64,000 nt of DNA. Origin: Escherichia coli (lineage in GTDB: Bacteria > Pseudomonadota > Gammaproteobacteria > Enterobacterales > Enterobacteriaceae). Made by a program: the position numbers and the translations under genes. The stretch lies in NCBI RefSeq assembly GCF_003334405.1, contig NZ_QOWM01000003.1. The stretch is one strand, 5' to 3'. A model generated the notes under the pieces. That model searched no databases, was not told where the DNA came from, and worked only from the letters and a program-made list of their open reading frames with translations. This document shows, piece after piece, positions 51,081 to 60,642 of the stretch; the stretch's first letter is position 1; each line of letters begins with the position of its first letter.

Positions 51081-51185
51081 GTCTGACGTGCTACGCCTGT
51101 CAGGCCTATTCGACTCCTGCAATGTATTGAATTTGCATAGTTTTATAGGTCGAATAAGGCGTTCACGCCGCATCCGGCGTGAACA
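51081..51185. repeat. BIME/RIP-type repetitive element (REP - IHF-like core - REP)
   Basis: GACGTGCTACGCCTGTCAGGCCTA ... CTGCAATGTATTGAATTTGCA ... TAGGTCGAATAAGGCGTTCACGCCGCATCCGGCG between cho and nadE; about 90% similar to the copy at 58226..58325. Confidence 0.7.
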
Positions 51186-51223
51186 AATTACTCTTTTTCG
51201 CACAATCCAATATGTGCAAATTA

Positions 51224-52051
51224 TTACTTTTTCCAGAAATCATCGAAAACGGTAATTGGCGGACGGCGTTTATGTTCGGTTTTCAGATACCAGTTCTCTA
51301 TTGTTCTGGCGACCTGTTGAGGTACGTTTTTCCCTTCCAGATAGTCGTCGATATTGTCATAGGTCACGCCGAGTGCCACTTCATCTGGCAGAGAAGGGCG
51401 ATCATCTTCCAGATCGGCCGTTGGCGCTTTCTTATAAAGGTGTTCCGGGCAAGCTAATGCCGCCAGTAACTGTTTACCCTGACGTTTGTTGAGACGATAC
51501 AGCGGATTAATGTCCGTACCGCCGTCACCATATTTAGTGAAGAATCCGGTAATGGCTTCTGCTGCATGATCGGTGCCCACCACGACACCGCTGGTCATAC
51601 CCGCAATGCTATATTGTGCTTTCATCCGCTCACGCGCTTTTTCATTGCCACGGACAAAATCGCTCAGTTCAATGCCTGCTTCCCGCAATGCCTGTTCGCT
51701 GGCCAATACCGCGCCCTTGATATTAACGGTTAATACGCGATCCGGTTGAATAAAGGCAATGGCATCCTGGCAATCTTGTTCGTCGGCCTGAACACCATAG
51801 GGCAGGCGTACGGCAATAAATTGCAGTGATTCGTTGCCGGTTTCCAGGCGCAGCTCATTAATCGCCATCTGGCACAGCTTTCCGGCAAGCGTGGAGTCCT
51901 GACCGCCGCTGATCCCGAGCACCAGTGATTTAATGAACGGATAAGTTTGCAGGTAGCTTTTCAGAAAATCGACACTACGACGAATTTCCTCTTCAGCATT
52001 AATCTGCGGTTTTGCGCCCAGCGCCTTTATTATTTGTTGTTGCAATGTCAT
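51224..52051 (-). CDS. nadE: NH3-dependent NAD+ synthetase
   Basis: 275-aa ORF; PP-loop SGGQDS ([13 protein letters not shown]). Confidence 0.95.
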
Positions 52052-58123: not shown

Positions 58124-58138
58124 GTGAGGATGTTTGCC

Positions 58139-58325
58139 AGATGCGGCGTGAACCTTGCATCCGGCGATTAATTCCTACAAAGGCGGCGTAACTGCGCCGC
58201 TTGAGACTGCTGACAAACGCAAAACTGCCTGATGCGCTTCGCTTATCAGGCCTACGTGTTTCCTGCAATATATTGAATTTGCACAGTTTTGTAGGCCGGA
58301 TAAGGCGTTCACGCCGCATCCGGCA
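58139..58325. repeat. cluster of REP/BIME elements (at least three REP palindromes with an IHF-like core)
   Basis: GATGCGGCGTGAACCTTGCATCCGGCG; CTGCCTGATGCGCTTCGCTTATCAGGCCTAC; CTGCAATATATTGAATTTGCA; TTGTAGGCCGGATAAGGCGTTCACGCCGCATCCGGCA, between convergent chbG and katE. Confidence 0.75.
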
Positions 58326-58380
58326 TAAACAAAGCGCACTATGTAAATCATTTGAGGCGGCGCAATTGCGCCGCCTCCCA

Positions 58381-60642
58381 TCAGGCAGGAATTTTGTCAA
58401 TCTTAGGAATGCGTGACCACACGCGGTGTGCTGCCATCAGCGTTAGCAGTTCATCCATAAAACTACCGTCAGCGCTGTCAGCTTCCACAATCCCTTCTTC
58501 ACCCTGGTCAGCGACCTTGATTGTTGCTTTAAACTTGCGCGCGTCACCCGCCAGCGCAATCGGTTTAAGGTGTTTGTAGGCTTCCATCAGGTAGTAGTTG
58601 GCATCGCCGTTGTCAGCGATATCCGCGATATTGCCGCAAGGGACAATGACCGCATCGACCGTCAGCGAAGGTGCACCGGCAAAGGTAGCGGCTATAGGCA
58701 ACACCGTACCGTCATCCGCAGTCACTTCACCCATTCGGGAGTAGAGCAGTTTGGCATGAACGCCTTTGGCCTTCAGCGCCTTGAGAATGGCCAGAAGGTC
58801 TGCCGATCTCACTTCATCATTAAGTAAAATCGCTACCACGCGACCTTTCACATCACCGTCAGGAATGGCGTACAAACTTAAGGATGGATCCTTTTTCAGA
58901 CCGTTGACGTCCGGAGGTGGGGTGATATTCAGCTGGTCGTCAGTCAGTTCGATACCGAGATTTTTCGCCACCGCCTGGGCCAGAGTGAGATCAATATGCG
59001 CCAGCTGGTCAACAACGCGCTCACGAATATACGGACGAACGACTTTGCTTAACTCAAAACTGAAACCATCGACAATATGGCGCTGCTCAAATGGCGTCTG
59101 ACTTAGCCAGAACAGACGCGGATGGGAATAATATTCGCCAAACGATGGGCTGCGCTCGCGAACTTTATTGCCTTCCACGCGCTCCTGGTATGATTCAAAA
59201 CCGCCGCGTTTCGGCCCCGGCGGTGTTTCGCGCGGCCAGTTATCGTTAATCGAGTTCGGTTCGTAATTCGCCGGGTTAGTGTCGATCCCCATGCGATGCA
59301 TGCCGTCACGCTGGAAATTATGGTAAGGGCAGGTCGGACGGTTAATCGGAATCTCATGGAAATTCGGCCCACCAAGACGACTGATTTGTGTATCGGTATA
59401 GGAGAACAAACGTCCCTGCAACAGCGGATCGTTGGTGAAGTCCAGTCCCGGCACGATATGCCCAGGATGGAAAGCCGCCTGTTCGTTTTCAGCAAAGAAG
59501 TTATCCGGGTTGCGATTGAGCACCATTTTGCCGACACGCTGAACGGGCACCAGTTCTTCCGGGATAAGTTTGGTTGGATCGAGAAGATCGAAGTCGAACT
59601 TGAATTCATCTTCTTCAGGAATCAACTGGAAGCCCAGTTCGTATTCCGGAAAATCGCCTGCTTCAATGGCTTCCCACAACTCGCGGCGGTGGAAGTCCGG
59701 GTCACGTCCGGTGAGTTTTTGTGCTTCATCCCAAACGAGTGAGGCTTTACCTGCCAGTGGTTTCCAGTGGAAACGTACAAACGTTGCCTTCCCTTCGGCA
59801 TTAATCAGGCGGAAGGTGTGAATACCGAAGCCTTCCATGGTGCGGTAACTGCGGGGGATGCCGCGATCCGACATCGCCCACATCACGTTGTGCAGAGTTT
59901 CAGGTTGCAGAGAAACATAATCCCAGAAAGTATCGTGGGCACTTTGCCCTTGTGGAATTGCCCAGTGCGGTTCTGGTTTTACCGCATGAACAAAATCGGG
60001 GAATTTATGCGCATCCTGGATAAAGAAGATTGGCGTGTTATTGCCAACGAGGTCAAAAATACCCTCTTCGGTATAGAACTTGGTGGCAAAGCCACGGATA
60101 TCACGCACGGTATCAGCAGAGCCAGCACCACCCTGAACGGTAGAGAAACGTACAAATACTGGGGTGATTTTGTTCGGATCTGAGAGGAAATCCGCTTTGG
60201 TAATATCGCTTAAGCTTTTATATGGCTGGAAATAACCGTGAGCGGCTGATCCGCGTGCATGAACAATACGTTCCGGAATGCGCTCATGGTCAAAGTGGGT
60301 GATTTTCTCGCGCAGAATAAAATCTTCCAGCAGCGTTGGACCACGGCTACCGGCACGCAGTGAGTTTTGATCGTCGGCGATGCGCACGCCCTGATTAGTG
60401 GTCAGCGCATAATTTTCACTGCCTTTGCGTACGTCTTCCAGAGAATTAAGTTTTTCGTTACGCGTATCAGGGGCTTTCAGGCTCCCTGGGGCGGTAGGTT
60501 GTGCACCTGGCGGTGTTGGTTCAGCCGCTGGACGATGAGAGCCGTCCTCAGGTGCCAGTGAGTCCATCCCCGGTTTCGCTTCGCTGGAATCGTGTAGTGG
60601 TGACTGGTGCTGATGTGGGTTCTTTTCGTTATGTTGCGACAT
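58381..60642 (-). CDS. katE: catalase HPII (large-subunit monofunctional catalase)
   Basis: 753-aa ORF with catalase core (FDRERIPERVVHARG-like) and C-terminal flavodoxin-like extension. Confidence 0.96.

What the first reader, a model, noticed from the sequence alone, without database searches (positions are those of the whole stretch)
51081..51185. Three copies of a RIP/BIME-1-like composite repeat (also at 30691..30785 and 58226..58325)
Each copy has two REP palindromes flanking a CTGCAAT(G/A)(A/T)ATTGAATTTGCA-like core that resembles an IHF site. The 51.1 kb and 58.3 kb copies are about 90% identical over roughly 90 bp, in the same orientation, and all three sit between convergent or tandem gene ends. 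They are likely sites of IHF/gyrase binding and mRNA 3'-end stabilisation, and they generate the spurious hypothetical ORFs at 51064..51255 and 58201..58416.
Basis: seen in the sequence. Interest (0 to 1): 0.3.

Follow-up and report, generated by a model that had tools for sequence, protein, structure and literature searches.

The report
Two known E. coli BIME-1 repeats
Two of the three sites are ordinary copies of a long-known 154-bp E. coli intergenic repeat (BIME-1/RIP) that carries a binding site for the DNA-bending protein IHF, the third is a different REP pair, and the one point of wider interest is that such copies sit between duplicated copies of a host terminator hairpin.

Summary
The window is E. 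coli K-12-like DNA, the reverse of MG1655 1.81-1.87 Mb.

- **nadE-cho (51055-51209) and chbG-katE (58202-58355):** both are genuine BIME-1 (= RIP/RIB) elements. Each has outer inverted motifs, a z1 REP, the 35-nt L linker with a one-mismatch IHF consensus, and an inverted y REP. They score 126 and 189 bits on a family HMM. A published catalogue lists both as BIME-1.
- **ynjI-gdhA (30692-30786):** this copy is not BIME-1. It has two z1-like REPs, a linker found once per genome, and no IHF consensus. The same catalogue does not list it as BIME-1.
- **Identity and ORFs:** the two true copies are 84-86% identical, not about 90%. The two ORFs are repeat-derived and have been deposited as hypothetical proteins.
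- **Gyrase:** not supported. All three loci have zero mapped cleavage sites.
- **Age:** the nadE-cho copy is fixed in 5,426 of 5,426 genomes and shared with other Escherichia species. The chbG-katE copy is present in 36% of genomes.
- **By-product:** 23 of 43 BIME-1 copies, including the chbG-katE one, are flanked by direct repeats of a locus-specific terminator-like hairpin. Exact empty, single and double alleles exist. This points to insertion with duplication of the whole hairpin. I found no description of it in the literature I could search.

The parts
51055..51209 (+). BIME-1 (RIP) element between the nadE stop (51224, - strand) and the cho start (50994, - strand). It is old and degenerate: about 75% identical to the family consensus.
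   Evidence: Family HMM 126.1 bits, E 1.6e-38, aligned 51058-51222. 116/155 identical to the consensus. Present in 5,426 of 5,426 complete E. coli genomes. Orthologous copies in E. whittamii and Escherichia sp. E1V33. Listed as BIMEs1 1826168-1826265 in PMC6379681 sheet DS3.
51080..51109 (+). z1-type REP, degenerate (CGTCTGACGTGCTACGCCTGTCAGGCCTAT). The stem is kept by paired changes relative to the consensus GCCTGATGCGCTACGCTTATCAGGCCTAC.
   Evidence: Read. REP reference sequences from PMC11208160. The short type is called z1 by elimination, because the Rfam naRNA4 consensus shows Y plus the long Z2. The hairpin is predicted in RNA.
51110..51144 (+). L linker, 35 nt, with CTGCAATGTATTGAATTTGCA at 51117-51137.
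   Evidence: Exact core match. Rfam RF02751 42.9 bits on the - strand at 51102-51144.
51120..51132 (-). IHF consensus match ATTCAATACATTG (WATCAANNNNTTR, 1 mismatch).
   Evidence: Consensus scan. The consensus itself is from established knowledge. Binding was not tested.
51145..51179 (+). Inverted y-type REP (ATAGGTCGAATAAGGCGTTCACGCCGCATCCGGCG).
   Evidence: y consensus GCCGGATGCGGCGTGAACGCCTTATCCGGCCTAC quoted in PMC12306157.
58202..58355 (+). BIME-1 (RIP) element between convergent chbG (stop 58123, +) and katE (stop 58381, -). It is near-consensus (137/154) and strain-variable.
   Evidence: Family HMM 189.0 bits, E 9e-58. Identity to consensus. Full allele in 1,931 of 5,426 genomes. Precise empty allele in strain 63-2 and others. 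Listed as BIMEs1 1819022-1819210.
58202..58225 (+). Left outer motif (TGAGACTGCTGACAAACGCAAAAC), an inverted repeat of the right outer motif.
   Evidence: Family consensus from 53 copies. 1 mismatch to TGAGACTGATGACAAACGC.
58226..58255 (+). z1-type REP (TGCCTGATGCGCTTCGCTTATCAGGCCTAC). It contains the natural IS621 target ATCAGGCCTAC.
   Evidence: IS621 is inserted exactly after ...ATCAGGCCT in strain HB-Coli0.
58256..58290 (+). L linker, 35 nt, with CTGCAATATATTGAATTTGCA at 58263-58283.
   Evidence: Rfam RF02751 55.5 bits on the - strand at 58248-58290. The 45-nt L query has a median of 25 places per E. coli genome.
58266..58278 (-). IHF consensus match ATTCAATATATTG (1 mismatch).
58291..58325 (+). 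Inverted y-type REP (GTAGGCCGGATAAGGCGTTCACGCCGCATCCGGCA).
58326..58355 (+). Right outer motif (TAAACAAAGCGCACTATGTAAATCATTTGA).
58182..58200 (.). Left copy of the duplicated host hairpin (GGCGGCGTAACTGCGCCGC), abutting the element.
   Evidence: 17/19 identical to 58356-58374. Direct-repeat score 15 against a control 99th percentile of 9. The empty allele keeps one copy only.
58356..58374 (.). Right copy of the duplicated hairpin (GGCGGCGCAATTGCGCCGC). It lies next to the katE stop codon and is the likely katE terminator stem.
   Evidence: Predicted as a separate hairpin on both strands.
58134..58178 (+). Extra degenerate y-type REP downstream of chbG. It can pair with the element's y REP in RNA.
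   Evidence: HMM hit 58182-58134 on the - strand, 15.8 bits. Long-range pairing in the minimum-energy fold. Explains the 188-nt catalogue interval.
30692..30786 (.). REP doublet that is not BIME-1: REP variant (30692-30721), unique 34-nt linker (30722-30755), z1-type REP (30756-30786). It lies between convergent ynjI and gdhA.
   Evidence: HMM 38.8 / 34.0 bits on the two strands. Linker found once per genome, in 3,503 of 5,426 genomes. No IHF consensus in the linker. Listed as BIMEs2 1846561-1846653. Absent together with ynjI in about 36% of genomes.
51064..51255 (+). Repeat-derived ORF (63 aa), not a gene.
   Evidence: The exact product is deposited as 'hypothetical protein' on 343 contigs. 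No Pfam match for the 85-aa member of its 90% cluster (P0010), the protein actually scanned. Not annotated in current RefSeq records. It overlaps the nadE 3' end on the other strand.
58201..58416 (+). Repeat-derived ORF (71 aa, TTG start), not a gene.
   Evidence: It shares ...LRLSGL..SCN.LNLHSF.GRIRRSRRIR... with the other ORF because both read the repeat in the same frame.

Best explanation
**What the sites are.**
- The nadE-cho and chbG-katE sites are copies of the E. coli BIME-1 repeat, also called RIP or RIB. It is a palindromic element of about 154 bp resembling a miniature transposon.
- Its parts are outer inverted motifs, a short z1-type REP, a conserved 35-bp L linker with an IHF consensus, and an inverted y-type REP.
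- The ynjI-gdhA site is a separate, single-locus REP doublet without an IHF site.

**How it most likely works (inferred from family-level knowledge; only the sequence anatomy is shown here).**
- On DNA, IHF binds the L linker and bends it sharply.
- On RNA, the element is transcribed as part of the 3' untranslated regions of nadE, katE and chbG. There its REP hairpins slow 3' exonucleases and modulate termination.
- It is not a preferred gyrase site.

**History (shown here).**
- The nadE-cho copy is ancient, fixed and decaying.
- The chbG-katE copy is a strain-variable insertion next to the katE terminator hairpin, with that hairpin duplicated on both sides. Rare strains have lost it precisely.
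For: **Anatomy and family membership.**
-.
- 53 independent copies from Escherichia and Pseudocitrobacter give a 154-nt consensus. The two window copies score 189 and 126 bits against it.

**IHF consensus.** One mismatch in both copies, none in the 30k linker.

**Dispersed family.** At least 25-40 places per E. coli genome.

**Definition of BIME-1.** z1 + y + L with an IHF site, about 140 bp, present or absent among isolates: PMC3333891 and PMC1187871.

**Independent catalogue.** The two loci are listed as BIME-1 and the third as non-BIME-1.

**RNA structure.** z-scores -4.1 to -8.2. No canonical intrinsic terminator in either intergenic region.

**Age.**
- Fixation in 5,426 of 5,426 genomes, with orthologues in E. 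whittamii and Escherichia sp. E1V33.
- By contrast, 1,931 of 5,426 genomes carry the chbG-katE copy.

**Insertion and excision.** Duplicated hairpin and precise empty allele.

**Gyrase.**
Against: - IHF binding at these two loci was not tested. No ChIP peak list could be read.
- The IHF match has one mismatch to WATCAANNNNTTR.
- The family set was collected with an exact L-core pattern, so conservation of the core within that set is circular. Only the flanks, 24 extra copies found by HMM and the Rfam consensus are independent.
- Calling the short REP 'z1' is by elimination, because the figure giving the three consensus sequences is not held.
- A 2026 preprint reports that REP effects are local and context-dependent, so the effect on nadE, cho or katE expression may be small or nil.
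Confidence: 0.88

Rival explanations
1. All three sites are RIP/BIME-1 elements with functional IHF sites. The 30.7 kb copy is simply a diverged member.
For: - The 30k linker is 34 nt, against 35 nt for L.
- It contains CTGCAATGAATTG. This aligns to the L core with a 4-nt deletion.
- It lies tail-to-tail between two REPs, as L does.
Against: - Linker similarity is not beyond chance (1,323 of 20,000 shuffles).
- No IHF consensus within 2 mismatches in the linker.
- No RF02751 hit at E<=10.
- The HMM score is equal on both strands and below that of plain y-z2 pairs.
- The REP types are wrong: z1-like plus z1, not z1 plus y.
- The outer motifs are absent.
- The linker is unique in the genome.
- It is catalogued outside BIME-1.
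Confidence: 0.06
2. The L-motif region is an independent small-RNA gene (Rfam ES036 / CssrF) rather than part of a DNA repeat.
For: - Both copies pass the RF02751 gathering score on the - strand.
- CssrF was seen as a transcript of about 290 nt by northern blot in Shigella, between dacB and yhbZ.
Against: - The 43-nt model consensus ends in GUAGGCCU, a REP tail, and contains the IHF core. It is therefore the repeat itself.
- There are 25-40 or more copies per genome.
- No promoter-like site in either region.
- The - strand is simply the sense strand of nadE and katE, so transcription is expected as 3' UTR read-through.
Confidence: 0.05
3. The duplicated hairpins flanking BIME-1 do not come from insertion. 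They are recombination or assembly artefacts, or two independent terminators of convergent genes that happen to be alike.
For: - Convergent genes each need a terminator.
- Hairpins are palindromic, so some similarity between flanks is expected. The inverted score is also raised: 8.6 against 5.3.
Against: - 23 of 43 loci exceed the 99th percentile of mismatched-locus controls in direct orientation. Asymmetric loops are preserved in direct, not inverted, register.
- Repeats abut the element ends within +/-1 nt in most cases.
- Alleles at two loci differ by exactly element plus one hairpin, 174 nt. They include a double allele: hairpin-element-hairpin-element-hairpin.
- These alleles are seen in many independent complete genomes.
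Confidence: 0.05
4. ORFs 51064..51255 and 58201..58416 encode real small proteins.
For: Exact products are in GenBank. One cluster member is named DUF3521.
Against: - The shared peptide is the translation of the repeat in one frame.
- No Pfam match.
- Dropped from current RefSeq annotation.
- They overlap the nadE and katE 3' ends on the opposite strand.
- The second has a TTG start.
- The chbG-katE ORF is absent from 64% of genomes.
Confidence: 0.02

Closest known systems
BIME-1 = RIP (repetitive IHF-binding palindromic element, Oppenheim et al. 1993) = RIB (Boccard & Prentki 1993)
   Same: The 51k and 58k copies share these features with it:
- z1 + L + y architecture;
- an IHF consensus in L;
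- outer motifs, with a total length of about 140-154 bp;
- extragenic location at 3' ends;
- about 78 copies in K-12;
- presence/absence polymorphism.

Sources.
   Different: Nothing essential differs for these two copies. The 51k copy is unusually degenerate (75% to consensus) and fixed. The 30k copy is not a member.
BIME-2 / atypical BIMEs (y + z2 REPs with short S, s, l, r linkers; preferred gyrase cleavage sites)
   Same: The 30k copy is a REP cluster with no L motif and no IHF site. It is filed under 'BIMEs2' in the catalogue used by PMC6379681.
   Different: - Its two REPs are z1-like, not y and z2.
- It is a single doublet with a unique 34-nt linker.
- It has no gyrase cleavage sites.

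'Atypical BIME' fits best.
REPINs mobilised by RAYT / TnpA-REP (Bertels & Rainey 2011; Nunvar 2010; Ton-Hoang 2012)
   Same: - Two inverted REPs that form a long hairpin.
- A non-autonomous element.
- Presence/absence among strains.
   Different: - IS200/IS605-type Y1 transposition makes no target duplication.
- BIME-1 copies here are flanked by 13-30-nt duplicated host hairpins. The accepted model does not predict this.
Neisseria Correia elements (miniature transposon of about 150 bp with terminal inverted repeats and a central IHF site)
   Same: - Similar size.
- Terminal inverted repeats.
- A central IHF consensus.
- Intergenic and co-transcribed (Delihas 2011 review).
   Different: - No sequence relationship.
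- Correia elements make a short TA duplication (my own knowledge).
- BIME-1 is flanked by a duplicated whole hairpin.
Rfam RF02751 ES036 (CssrF) sRNA
   Same: The 43-nt model is the L motif plus the REP tail, on the - strand. Both true copies pass the threshold.
   Different: Filed in Rfam as an sRNA gene. Here it is a multi-copy DNA repeat transcribed within 3' UTRs.

Membership tests
BIME-1 / RIP (51k and 58k copies) | One z1 and one y REP in inverted, tail-to-tail orientation | tested here: met
   REP reference sequences. The z1 label is by elimination.
BIME-1 / RIP (51k and 58k copies) | Conserved long (L) linker between the REP tails | tested here: met
   35-nt linkers. Exact CTGCAATRTATTGAATTTGCA. 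RF02751 above threshold. Family HMM 126 and 189 bits.
BIME-1 / RIP (51k and 58k copies) | IHF consensus (WATCAANNNNTTR) inside L | tested here: met
   ATTCAATACATTG and ATTCAATATATTG, one mismatch each.
BIME-1 / RIP (51k and 58k copies) | IHF actually binds | not testable with these tools
   ChIP supplements are not held or contain no such loci. Binding is known only for the family.
BIME-1 / RIP (51k and 58k copies) | Dispersed multi-copy family, extragenic, at 3' ends of transcription units | tested here: met
   Median 25, up to 40 or more, L-motif places per genome. Gene context.
BIME-1 / RIP (51k and 58k copies) | Listed in a published BIME-1 catalogue of K-12 | tested here: met
   PMC6379681 sheet DS3: BIMEs1 1819022-1819210 and 1826168-1826265. 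The coordinate offset of 2,837-2,844 nt from MG1655 is consistent across all three loci.
BIME-1 / RIP (30k copy) | z1 + y REP pair | tested here: not met
   The left REP is a GCCGGGGGCGCTGCGCTTGCCCGGCCTAC variant and the right REP is z1. There is no y REP.
BIME-1 / RIP (30k copy) | L linker with IHF consensus | tested here: not met
   No RF02751 hit. Shuffle P about 0.04-0.07. No IHF match within 2 mismatches in the linker. The linker is unique in the genome.
BIME-2 (30k copy) | Alternating y and z2 REPs with short S / s, l, r linkers, usually in tandem | tested here: not met
   No y or z2 REP. A single doublet with a 34-nt linker. It is nevertheless filed as 'BIMEs2' in DS3, which appears to hold every REP cluster that is not BIME-1.
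Preferred gyrase site (all three) | Gyrase cleavage in vivo | tested here: not met
   0 cleavage sites at all three intervals in Cfx, RifCfx, microcin B17 and oxolinic acid Topo-seq. The BIME-1 class is depleted. Cleavage is concentrated in BIME-2.
Classical miniature inverted-repeat transposable element (58k copy) | Terminal inverted repeats plus flanking direct target duplication, with empty sites holding one target copy | tested here: met
   Outer inverted motifs. 19-nt flanking direct repeat, 17/19 identical. Empty allele with one copy. Unlike classical cases, the duplication is a whole hairpin of variable length (13-30 nt).

The most novel reading that the evidence does not exclude
BIME-1 is a 152-155-bp element resembling a miniature transposon. 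It inserts at intrinsic-terminator-like hairpins and duplicates the entire hairpin. The duplication is 13-30 nt, so its length is set by the structure rather than fixed.

- **After insertion:** the layout is A-tract, hairpin, element, hairpin, T-tract. The element is therefore always transcribed upstream of the surviving terminator of both flanking genes.
- **Later change:** the direct repeats then allow precise loss and tandem amplification.
- **Why it would matter:** the accepted RAYT/TnpA-REP (IS200/IS605-like, no target duplication) model does not predict this. It would constrain the long-unknown insertion mechanism of REP/BIME repeats.
- **Novelty is unverified:** I could not read the older papers that may already describe it (Boccard & Prentki 1993; Oppenheim 1993; Bachellier 1997).
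Probability: 0.4. Interest if true: 0.65.

Novelty: already known. Interest (0 to 1): 0.3.

Why it matters
**The reported finding.** It matters little. BIME-1/RIP elements have been known since 1991-1993, and these two loci are already catalogued. The practical value lies in four corrections:
- the third site is not a RIP;
- gyrase is not attracted to these sites in vivo;
- the Rfam 'sRNA' ES036 is the L motif of this repeat;
- the two ORFs are repeat translations that still sit in protein databases.

**The by-product.** Duplicated terminator hairpins flank half of the BIME-1 copies examined, and alleles differ by exactly one unit of element plus hairpin. This bears on an open question. [quoted passage not shown] The observation gives a concrete, testable target rule.

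Tried and rejected
- **REP/RIP features in RefSeq.** I looked for them in MG1655 (NC_000913.3) and W3110. Neither record carries any.
- **IHF ChIP peak lists.** Prieto 2012 has no supplement held as text. Kasho 2021 supplements do not mention these genes.
- **Original papers.** Boccard & Prentki 1993, Gilson 1991 and Bachellier 1997 are not held.
- **Literature search for 'repetitive IHF-binding palindromic'.** No hits.
- **Simple promoter and terminator scans of both intergenic regions.** Nothing found.
- **Pfam on the repeat ORFs.** I scanned the 71-aa 58k ORF product (P0001) and P0010, the 85-aa member of the 51k ORF's cluster that carries the name 'DUF3521'. Neither matched anything.
- **Hairpin duplication at the 51k copy.** I looked for a remnant. 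Only a weak AGGCGGG match appears in the E1V33 orthologue, so I make no claim.
- **Scan of genome contigs.** Absence of BIME-1 from Salmonella, Klebsiella and others cannot be concluded. Of the 30 hits outside Enterobacteriaceae, 26 are chance matches without REP tails. The other 4 are short contigs that look like Escherichia contamination.
- **Rejected ideas.** Chance similarity between the 51k and 58k copies. An independent sRNA gene. Real small proteins.
Full report
**Where the window comes from**

- The region around the finding is 100% identical to many E. coli genomes, including K-12.
- The window is collinear with the reverse complement of MG1655. The mapping is MG1655 coordinate = 1,874,509 minus window position. 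A few SNPs separate the two.
- With the MG1655 annotation, the three sites fall as follows:
  - between the nadE stop and the cho start, both on the window's - strand (51k);
  - between convergent chbG and katE (58k);
  - between convergent ynjI and gdhA (30k).

**Checking the observation**

- The 51k and 58k copies align without gaps in the same orientation. Identity is 77/90, 84/100 and 69/80, i.e. 84-86% rather than about 90%.
- Both carry CTGCAAT(G/A)TATTGAATTTGCA exactly. No other place in the window matches it within 4 mismatches.
- Both pass the gathering score of Rfam RF02751 (ES036/CssrF) on the - strand. That 43-nt consensus (AAAuUUGUGCAAAUUCAAUAAAUUGCAGGAaAUACGUAGGCCU) is the linker plus a REP tail.
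- The 30k copy has two REPs, but only CTGCAATGAATTG of the core. Four further tests separate it from the other two:
  - It has no RF02751 match even at E<=10.
  - Its linker's similarity to the L consensus is reached by 1,323 of 20,000 shuffles and 790 of 20,000 random window 34-mers.
  - A 44-nt query of its linker finds exactly one place per genome, in 3,503 of 5,426 genomes.
  - The equivalent 45-nt query from the 58k copy finds a median of 25 places per genome, capped at 40.

**Anatomy of the family**

- An exact-pattern scan of species-representative genomes returned many copies from Escherichia coli, E. albertii, E. whittamii, unnamed Escherichia species and Pseudocitrobacter.
- Fifty-three distinct copies align to a consensus of about 154 nt: TgAgactGATgaCAAAcGCAAnAT, then TGCCTGATGCGCTACGCTTATCAGGCCTAC, then a 35-nt linker, then GTAGGCCGGATAAGGCGTTnACGCCGCATCCGGCA, then nGAACAAaGCGCACTTTGTCAgcAATctga.
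- The outer motifs are inverted repeats of each other.
- The scan pattern fixed the linker core, so conservation of the core in this set is circular. The REPs and outer motifs are independent evidence. So are 24 further copies found by HMM that do not match the pattern.
- An HMM built from this set scores as follows:

| Sequence | Score |
|---|---|
| 58k copy | 189.0 bits |
| 51k copy | 126.1 bits |
| 30k copy | 38.8 bits (+ strand), 34.0 bits (- strand) |
| 58k copy read backwards | 21.6 bits |
| Plain y-z2 REP pairs with unrelated short linkers | 46-63 bits |

- The 30k score is therefore what any REP pair obtains.
- The REP types follow the three reference sequences quoted in PMC11208160.
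- The Rfam naRNA4 consensus shows Y plus the long Z2. The short type is therefore z1, by elimination.
[quoted passage not shown] It is about 140 bp long (PMC1187871).
- Both true copies match WATCAANNNNTTR with one mismatch on the - strand, at 51120-51132 and 58266-58278. The 30k linker has no match within two mismatches.

**Independent catalogue and gyrase**

Sheet DS3 of the supplement to Sutormin et al. 2019 lists 78 BIME-1 intervals in a W3110 derivative. The coordinate offset from MG1655 is 2,837-2,844 nt and is consistent across all three loci.

| Window site | DS3 class | DS3 interval |
|---|---|---|
| chbG-katE | BIMEs1 | 1819022-1819210 (188 nt, includes the extra y REP at window 58134-58178) |
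| nadE-cho | BIMEs1 | 1826168-1826265 |
| ynjI-gdhA | BIMEs2 | 1846561-1846653 |

- This agrees with my classification.
- All three intervals have zero gyrase cleavage sites under four drug conditions.
- BIME-1 as a class is depleted (3 observed, 9.0 expected, P = 0.02 with ciprofloxacin).
- Cleavage is enriched in BIME-2, mainly in y REPs. Cleavage sites are slightly under-represented at IHF sites.

**RNA level and ORFs**

- The intergenic RNAs are predicted to be strongly structured:
  - 51k: -51.4 kcal/mol, z = -4.1;
  - 58k: about -117 kcal/mol, z about -8 on either strand;
  - 30k: -49.5 kcal/mol, z = -4.0.
- Neither the 51k nor the 58k region has a canonical hairpin-plus-T-run terminator or a sigma-70-like promoter.
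- The - strand hit by RF02751 is the sense strand of nadE and katE. The element is therefore expected to be transcribed as 3' UTR.
- CssrF, the source of that Rfam family, was a northern-blot band of about 290 nt from another locus in Shigella. I take the Rfam family to be this repeat rather than a gene. This is an inference.
- The two ORFs exist. They translate the repeat in the same frame, giving ...LRLSGL..SCN.LNLHSF.GRIRRSRRIR....
- Their exact sequences are in GenBank as 'hypothetical protein', on 343 and 2 contigs.
- Pfam gave no match for the 58k ORF product (P0001) or for P0010, the 85-aa member of the 51k ORF's cluster; the 63-aa ORF itself was not scanned.
- Current RefSeq records annotate nothing there.

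**History of the three sites**

*The nadE-cho copy*
- It is in all 5,426 complete E. coli genomes, at 95% identity or better in 5,417.
- It is orthologously present in E. whittamii and Escherichia sp. E1V33. In Escherichia sp. MOD1-EC7003 its z1 half and half of cho are deleted.
- It is only about 75% identical to the consensus. Its z1 stem keeps pairing through paired changes.
- It lies 33 nt from a CTG-N10-CAG LexA-type box (51010-51025) upstream of cho. I identify that box from the sequence and from memory of the SOS literature.

*The chbG-katE copy*
- It is 89% identical to the consensus.
- It is present with its K-12-type intergenic region in only 1,931 of 5,426 genomes.
- Most other genomes, e.g. 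O157:H7, have an unrelated 46-nt spacer with a plain hairpin.

*The ynjI-gdhA doublet*
- It is missing together with ynjI in about 36% of genomes. There, a single y REP separates topB from gdhA.

**The duplicated hairpin**

This was not part of the finding, but it concerns the 58k copy directly.

- *The 58k copy.* The element is abutted on the left by GGCGGCGTAACTGCGCCGC (58182-58200). On the right it is abutted by GGCGGCGCAATTGCGCCGC (58356-58374).
- *Test across the family.* I took 43 copies that have both outer motifs. I compared the 32 nt outside the left end with the 32 nt outside the right end.
  - In direct orientation the mean local score is 11.8. Mismatched-locus controls give 5.1 (sd 1.2).
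  - 23 of 43 copies exceed the control 99th percentile.
- *Nature of the repeats*.
  - They are locus-specific and 13-30 nt long (median about 20).
  - They lie within about 1 nt of the element ends in most cases.
  - 22 of 23 fold as stable stem-loops (-1.4 to -18.3 kcal/mol; all but two at or below -6).
  - The left copy is preceded by an A-rich run. The right copy is followed by a T-rich run.
  - Asymmetric loops are kept in direct register.
- *Hairpins at the ends.* A stable hairpin abuts at least one end in 33 of 39 elements and both ends in 19 of 39. At control positions 130-160 nt away the figure is 4-6 of 39.
- *Allele series at the tkt locus* (prohibitin-family gene / tkt). E. coli genomes carry an empty allele, a single allele and a double allele.
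  - Empty: ...AAAAAAAGGGCCGCTTTCGCGGCCCTTCTCAC...
  - Single: hairpin, element, hairpin.
  - Double: hairpin, element, hairpin, element, hairpin.
  - The alleles differ by exactly 174 nt, which is the 153-nt element plus the 21-nt hairpin.
- *Allele series at chbG-katE.*
  - I built the predicted empty site from the window sequence.
  - It matches strain 63-2 at 100% over 607 nt in one piece. The genome reads ...CCTACAAAGGCGGCGTAACTGCGCCGCCTCCCATCA....
  - At least seven records have this junction exactly.
  - K-12-type flanks occur in 1,940 genomes and the full element in 1,931. The empty form is therefore rare and nested among filled ones. This points to precise loss between the direct repeats.
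- *Direction of the event.* Loss cannot create the repeats. Their presence at many independent loci, each with its own hairpin, is the signature of insertion with target duplication.
- *Consequence (inferred).* After insertion the upstream hairpin copy has lost its T run and the downstream copy keeps it. Transcripts from either side would then read through the element and end at the far hairpin. This would explain why these repeats are found transcribed at the 3' ends of transcription units.
- *Mechanism.* It is unknown.
  - IS200/IS605-type Y1 transposases, the relatives of TnpA-REP, do not make target duplications.
  - A stagger set by nicks at the two feet of an extruded hairpin, or template switching at the hairpin, are speculations.
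- *Prior description.* I found none in the searchable literature.
  - Ton-Hoang 2012 contains no 'duplicat' or 'direct repeat'.
  - The REPIN papers do not mention it.
  - Delihas 2011 states that REP sequences lack the signatures of miniature transposons.
  - A 2026 preprint calls the insertion mechanism unestablished.
  - The 1990s papers that sequenced 'excisions of a whole BIME-1' are not held. Novelty is therefore unverified.

**Verdict**

- The finding is real but ordinary. Two catalogued BIME-1/RIP elements are correctly recognised. The third site is wrongly included, and the gyrase claim fails against published data.
- IHF binding and mRNA stabilisation remain family-level inferences for these loci.
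- Interest is low for the finding itself. It is raised somewhat by the hairpin-duplication pattern, which deserves a genome-wide census and a check against the older literature.

Noticed in passing
window 58182-58200 and 58356-58374; loci L004, L128, L129, L130; 43 elements in L007-L125: BIME-1 copies are flanked by direct repeats of a locus-specific terminator-like hairpin: 13-30 nt, in 23 of 43 copies. Empty, single and double alleles differ by exactly element plus one hairpin (174 nt). This looks like a target-site duplication whose length is set by the hairpin structure.
   Followed up: yes
L002 (E. coli HB-Coli0, NZ_CP020933.1) 893/894, equivalent to window 58253: An IS621 copy (IS110 family, the bridge-RNA recombinase element) is inserted in the z1 REP of this very BIME-1, right after ...TTATCAGGCCT. 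That is its published natural target ATCAGGCCTAC. The 30k right REP also carries this target. The 51k copy does not (GTCAGGCCTAT).
   Followed up: partly
L127 (E. coli cS100a, NZ_CM176582.1), equivalent to window 51126: A 263-bp fragment annotated as a partial 'E3 binding domain-containing protein' gene sits inside the IHF core of the nadE-cho element. It is flanked by a 5-bp duplication (ATGTA). Seen in a single genome. The origin is unknown and it could be an assembly artefact.
   Followed up: partly
window 29638-30794; L003 (E. coli W224N): ynjI and the adjacent REP doublet are present or absent together. About 36% of complete E. coli genomes have topB followed by a single y REP and then gdhA. 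The breakpoint lies exactly at the gdhA stop codon.
   Followed up: partly
window 58124-58380; L005 (O157:H7): About 64% of E. coli genomes have a completely different 46-nt chbG-katE spacer with a plain hairpin and a different katE 3' end. The K-12-type region (257 nt: extra y REP, hairpin, BIME-1, hairpin) is a minority haplotype.
   Followed up: partly
L077, L079, L080, L085, L086 (Escherichia sp. MOD1-EC7003): z1-L-y units occur in tandem arrays of up to 7 copies or more, with periods of 107, about 115-120 and 162 nt. BIME-1 is described as single-copy, so these are atypical amplified forms.
   Followed up: no
L020, L022, L064, L070: Short contigs (261-3,920 nt) carry BIME-1 with REP tails. 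They sit in assemblies labelled Desulfosporosinus sp. OT, Alkalicoccobacillus porphyridii, Methylobacterium frigidaeris and a Collinsella metagenome-assembled genome. L020 is 99.2% identical to window 58235-58496. They are probably Escherichia contamination.
   Followed up: partly
window 51102-51144 and 58248-58290 (- strand); 58294-58382: Rfam RF02751 (ES036/CssrF 'sRNA') is in effect a model of the BIME-1 L motif plus a REP tail, so it will hit dozens of sites per E. coli genome. RF02564 (naRNA4) gives a sub-threshold hit (39.7 bits against 59.5) on the y REP plus the katE hairpin.
   Followed up: partly
window 51010-51025: CTGGTTATCTATCCAG is a CTG-N10-CAG LexA-box-like site upstream of cho. 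It lies only about 33 nt from the left end of the BIME-1 element. An IHF-induced bend would therefore sit close to the SOS-regulated cho promoter.
   Followed up: no
window 21941-21975: A perfect 10-bp inverted repeat, GGCCTACAAT...ATTGTAGGCC, looks like two REP tails facing each other without REP bodies. It scored only 1.2 bits on the BIME-1 HMM.
   Followed up: no
window 5590-5660: REP-like G+C-rich hairpins (…TCTCAGGCCCAC… and GTAGGCCCGGTAACATGTGTACCGGGCC) with variant tails. Not classified.
   Followed up: no
window 51064-51255: One database member of this ORF's cluster is named 'Protein of uncharacterised function (DUF3521)'. That member (P0010, 85 aa) matches nothing in current Pfam-A. 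The name may survive from a family built on repeat translations.
   Followed up: partly
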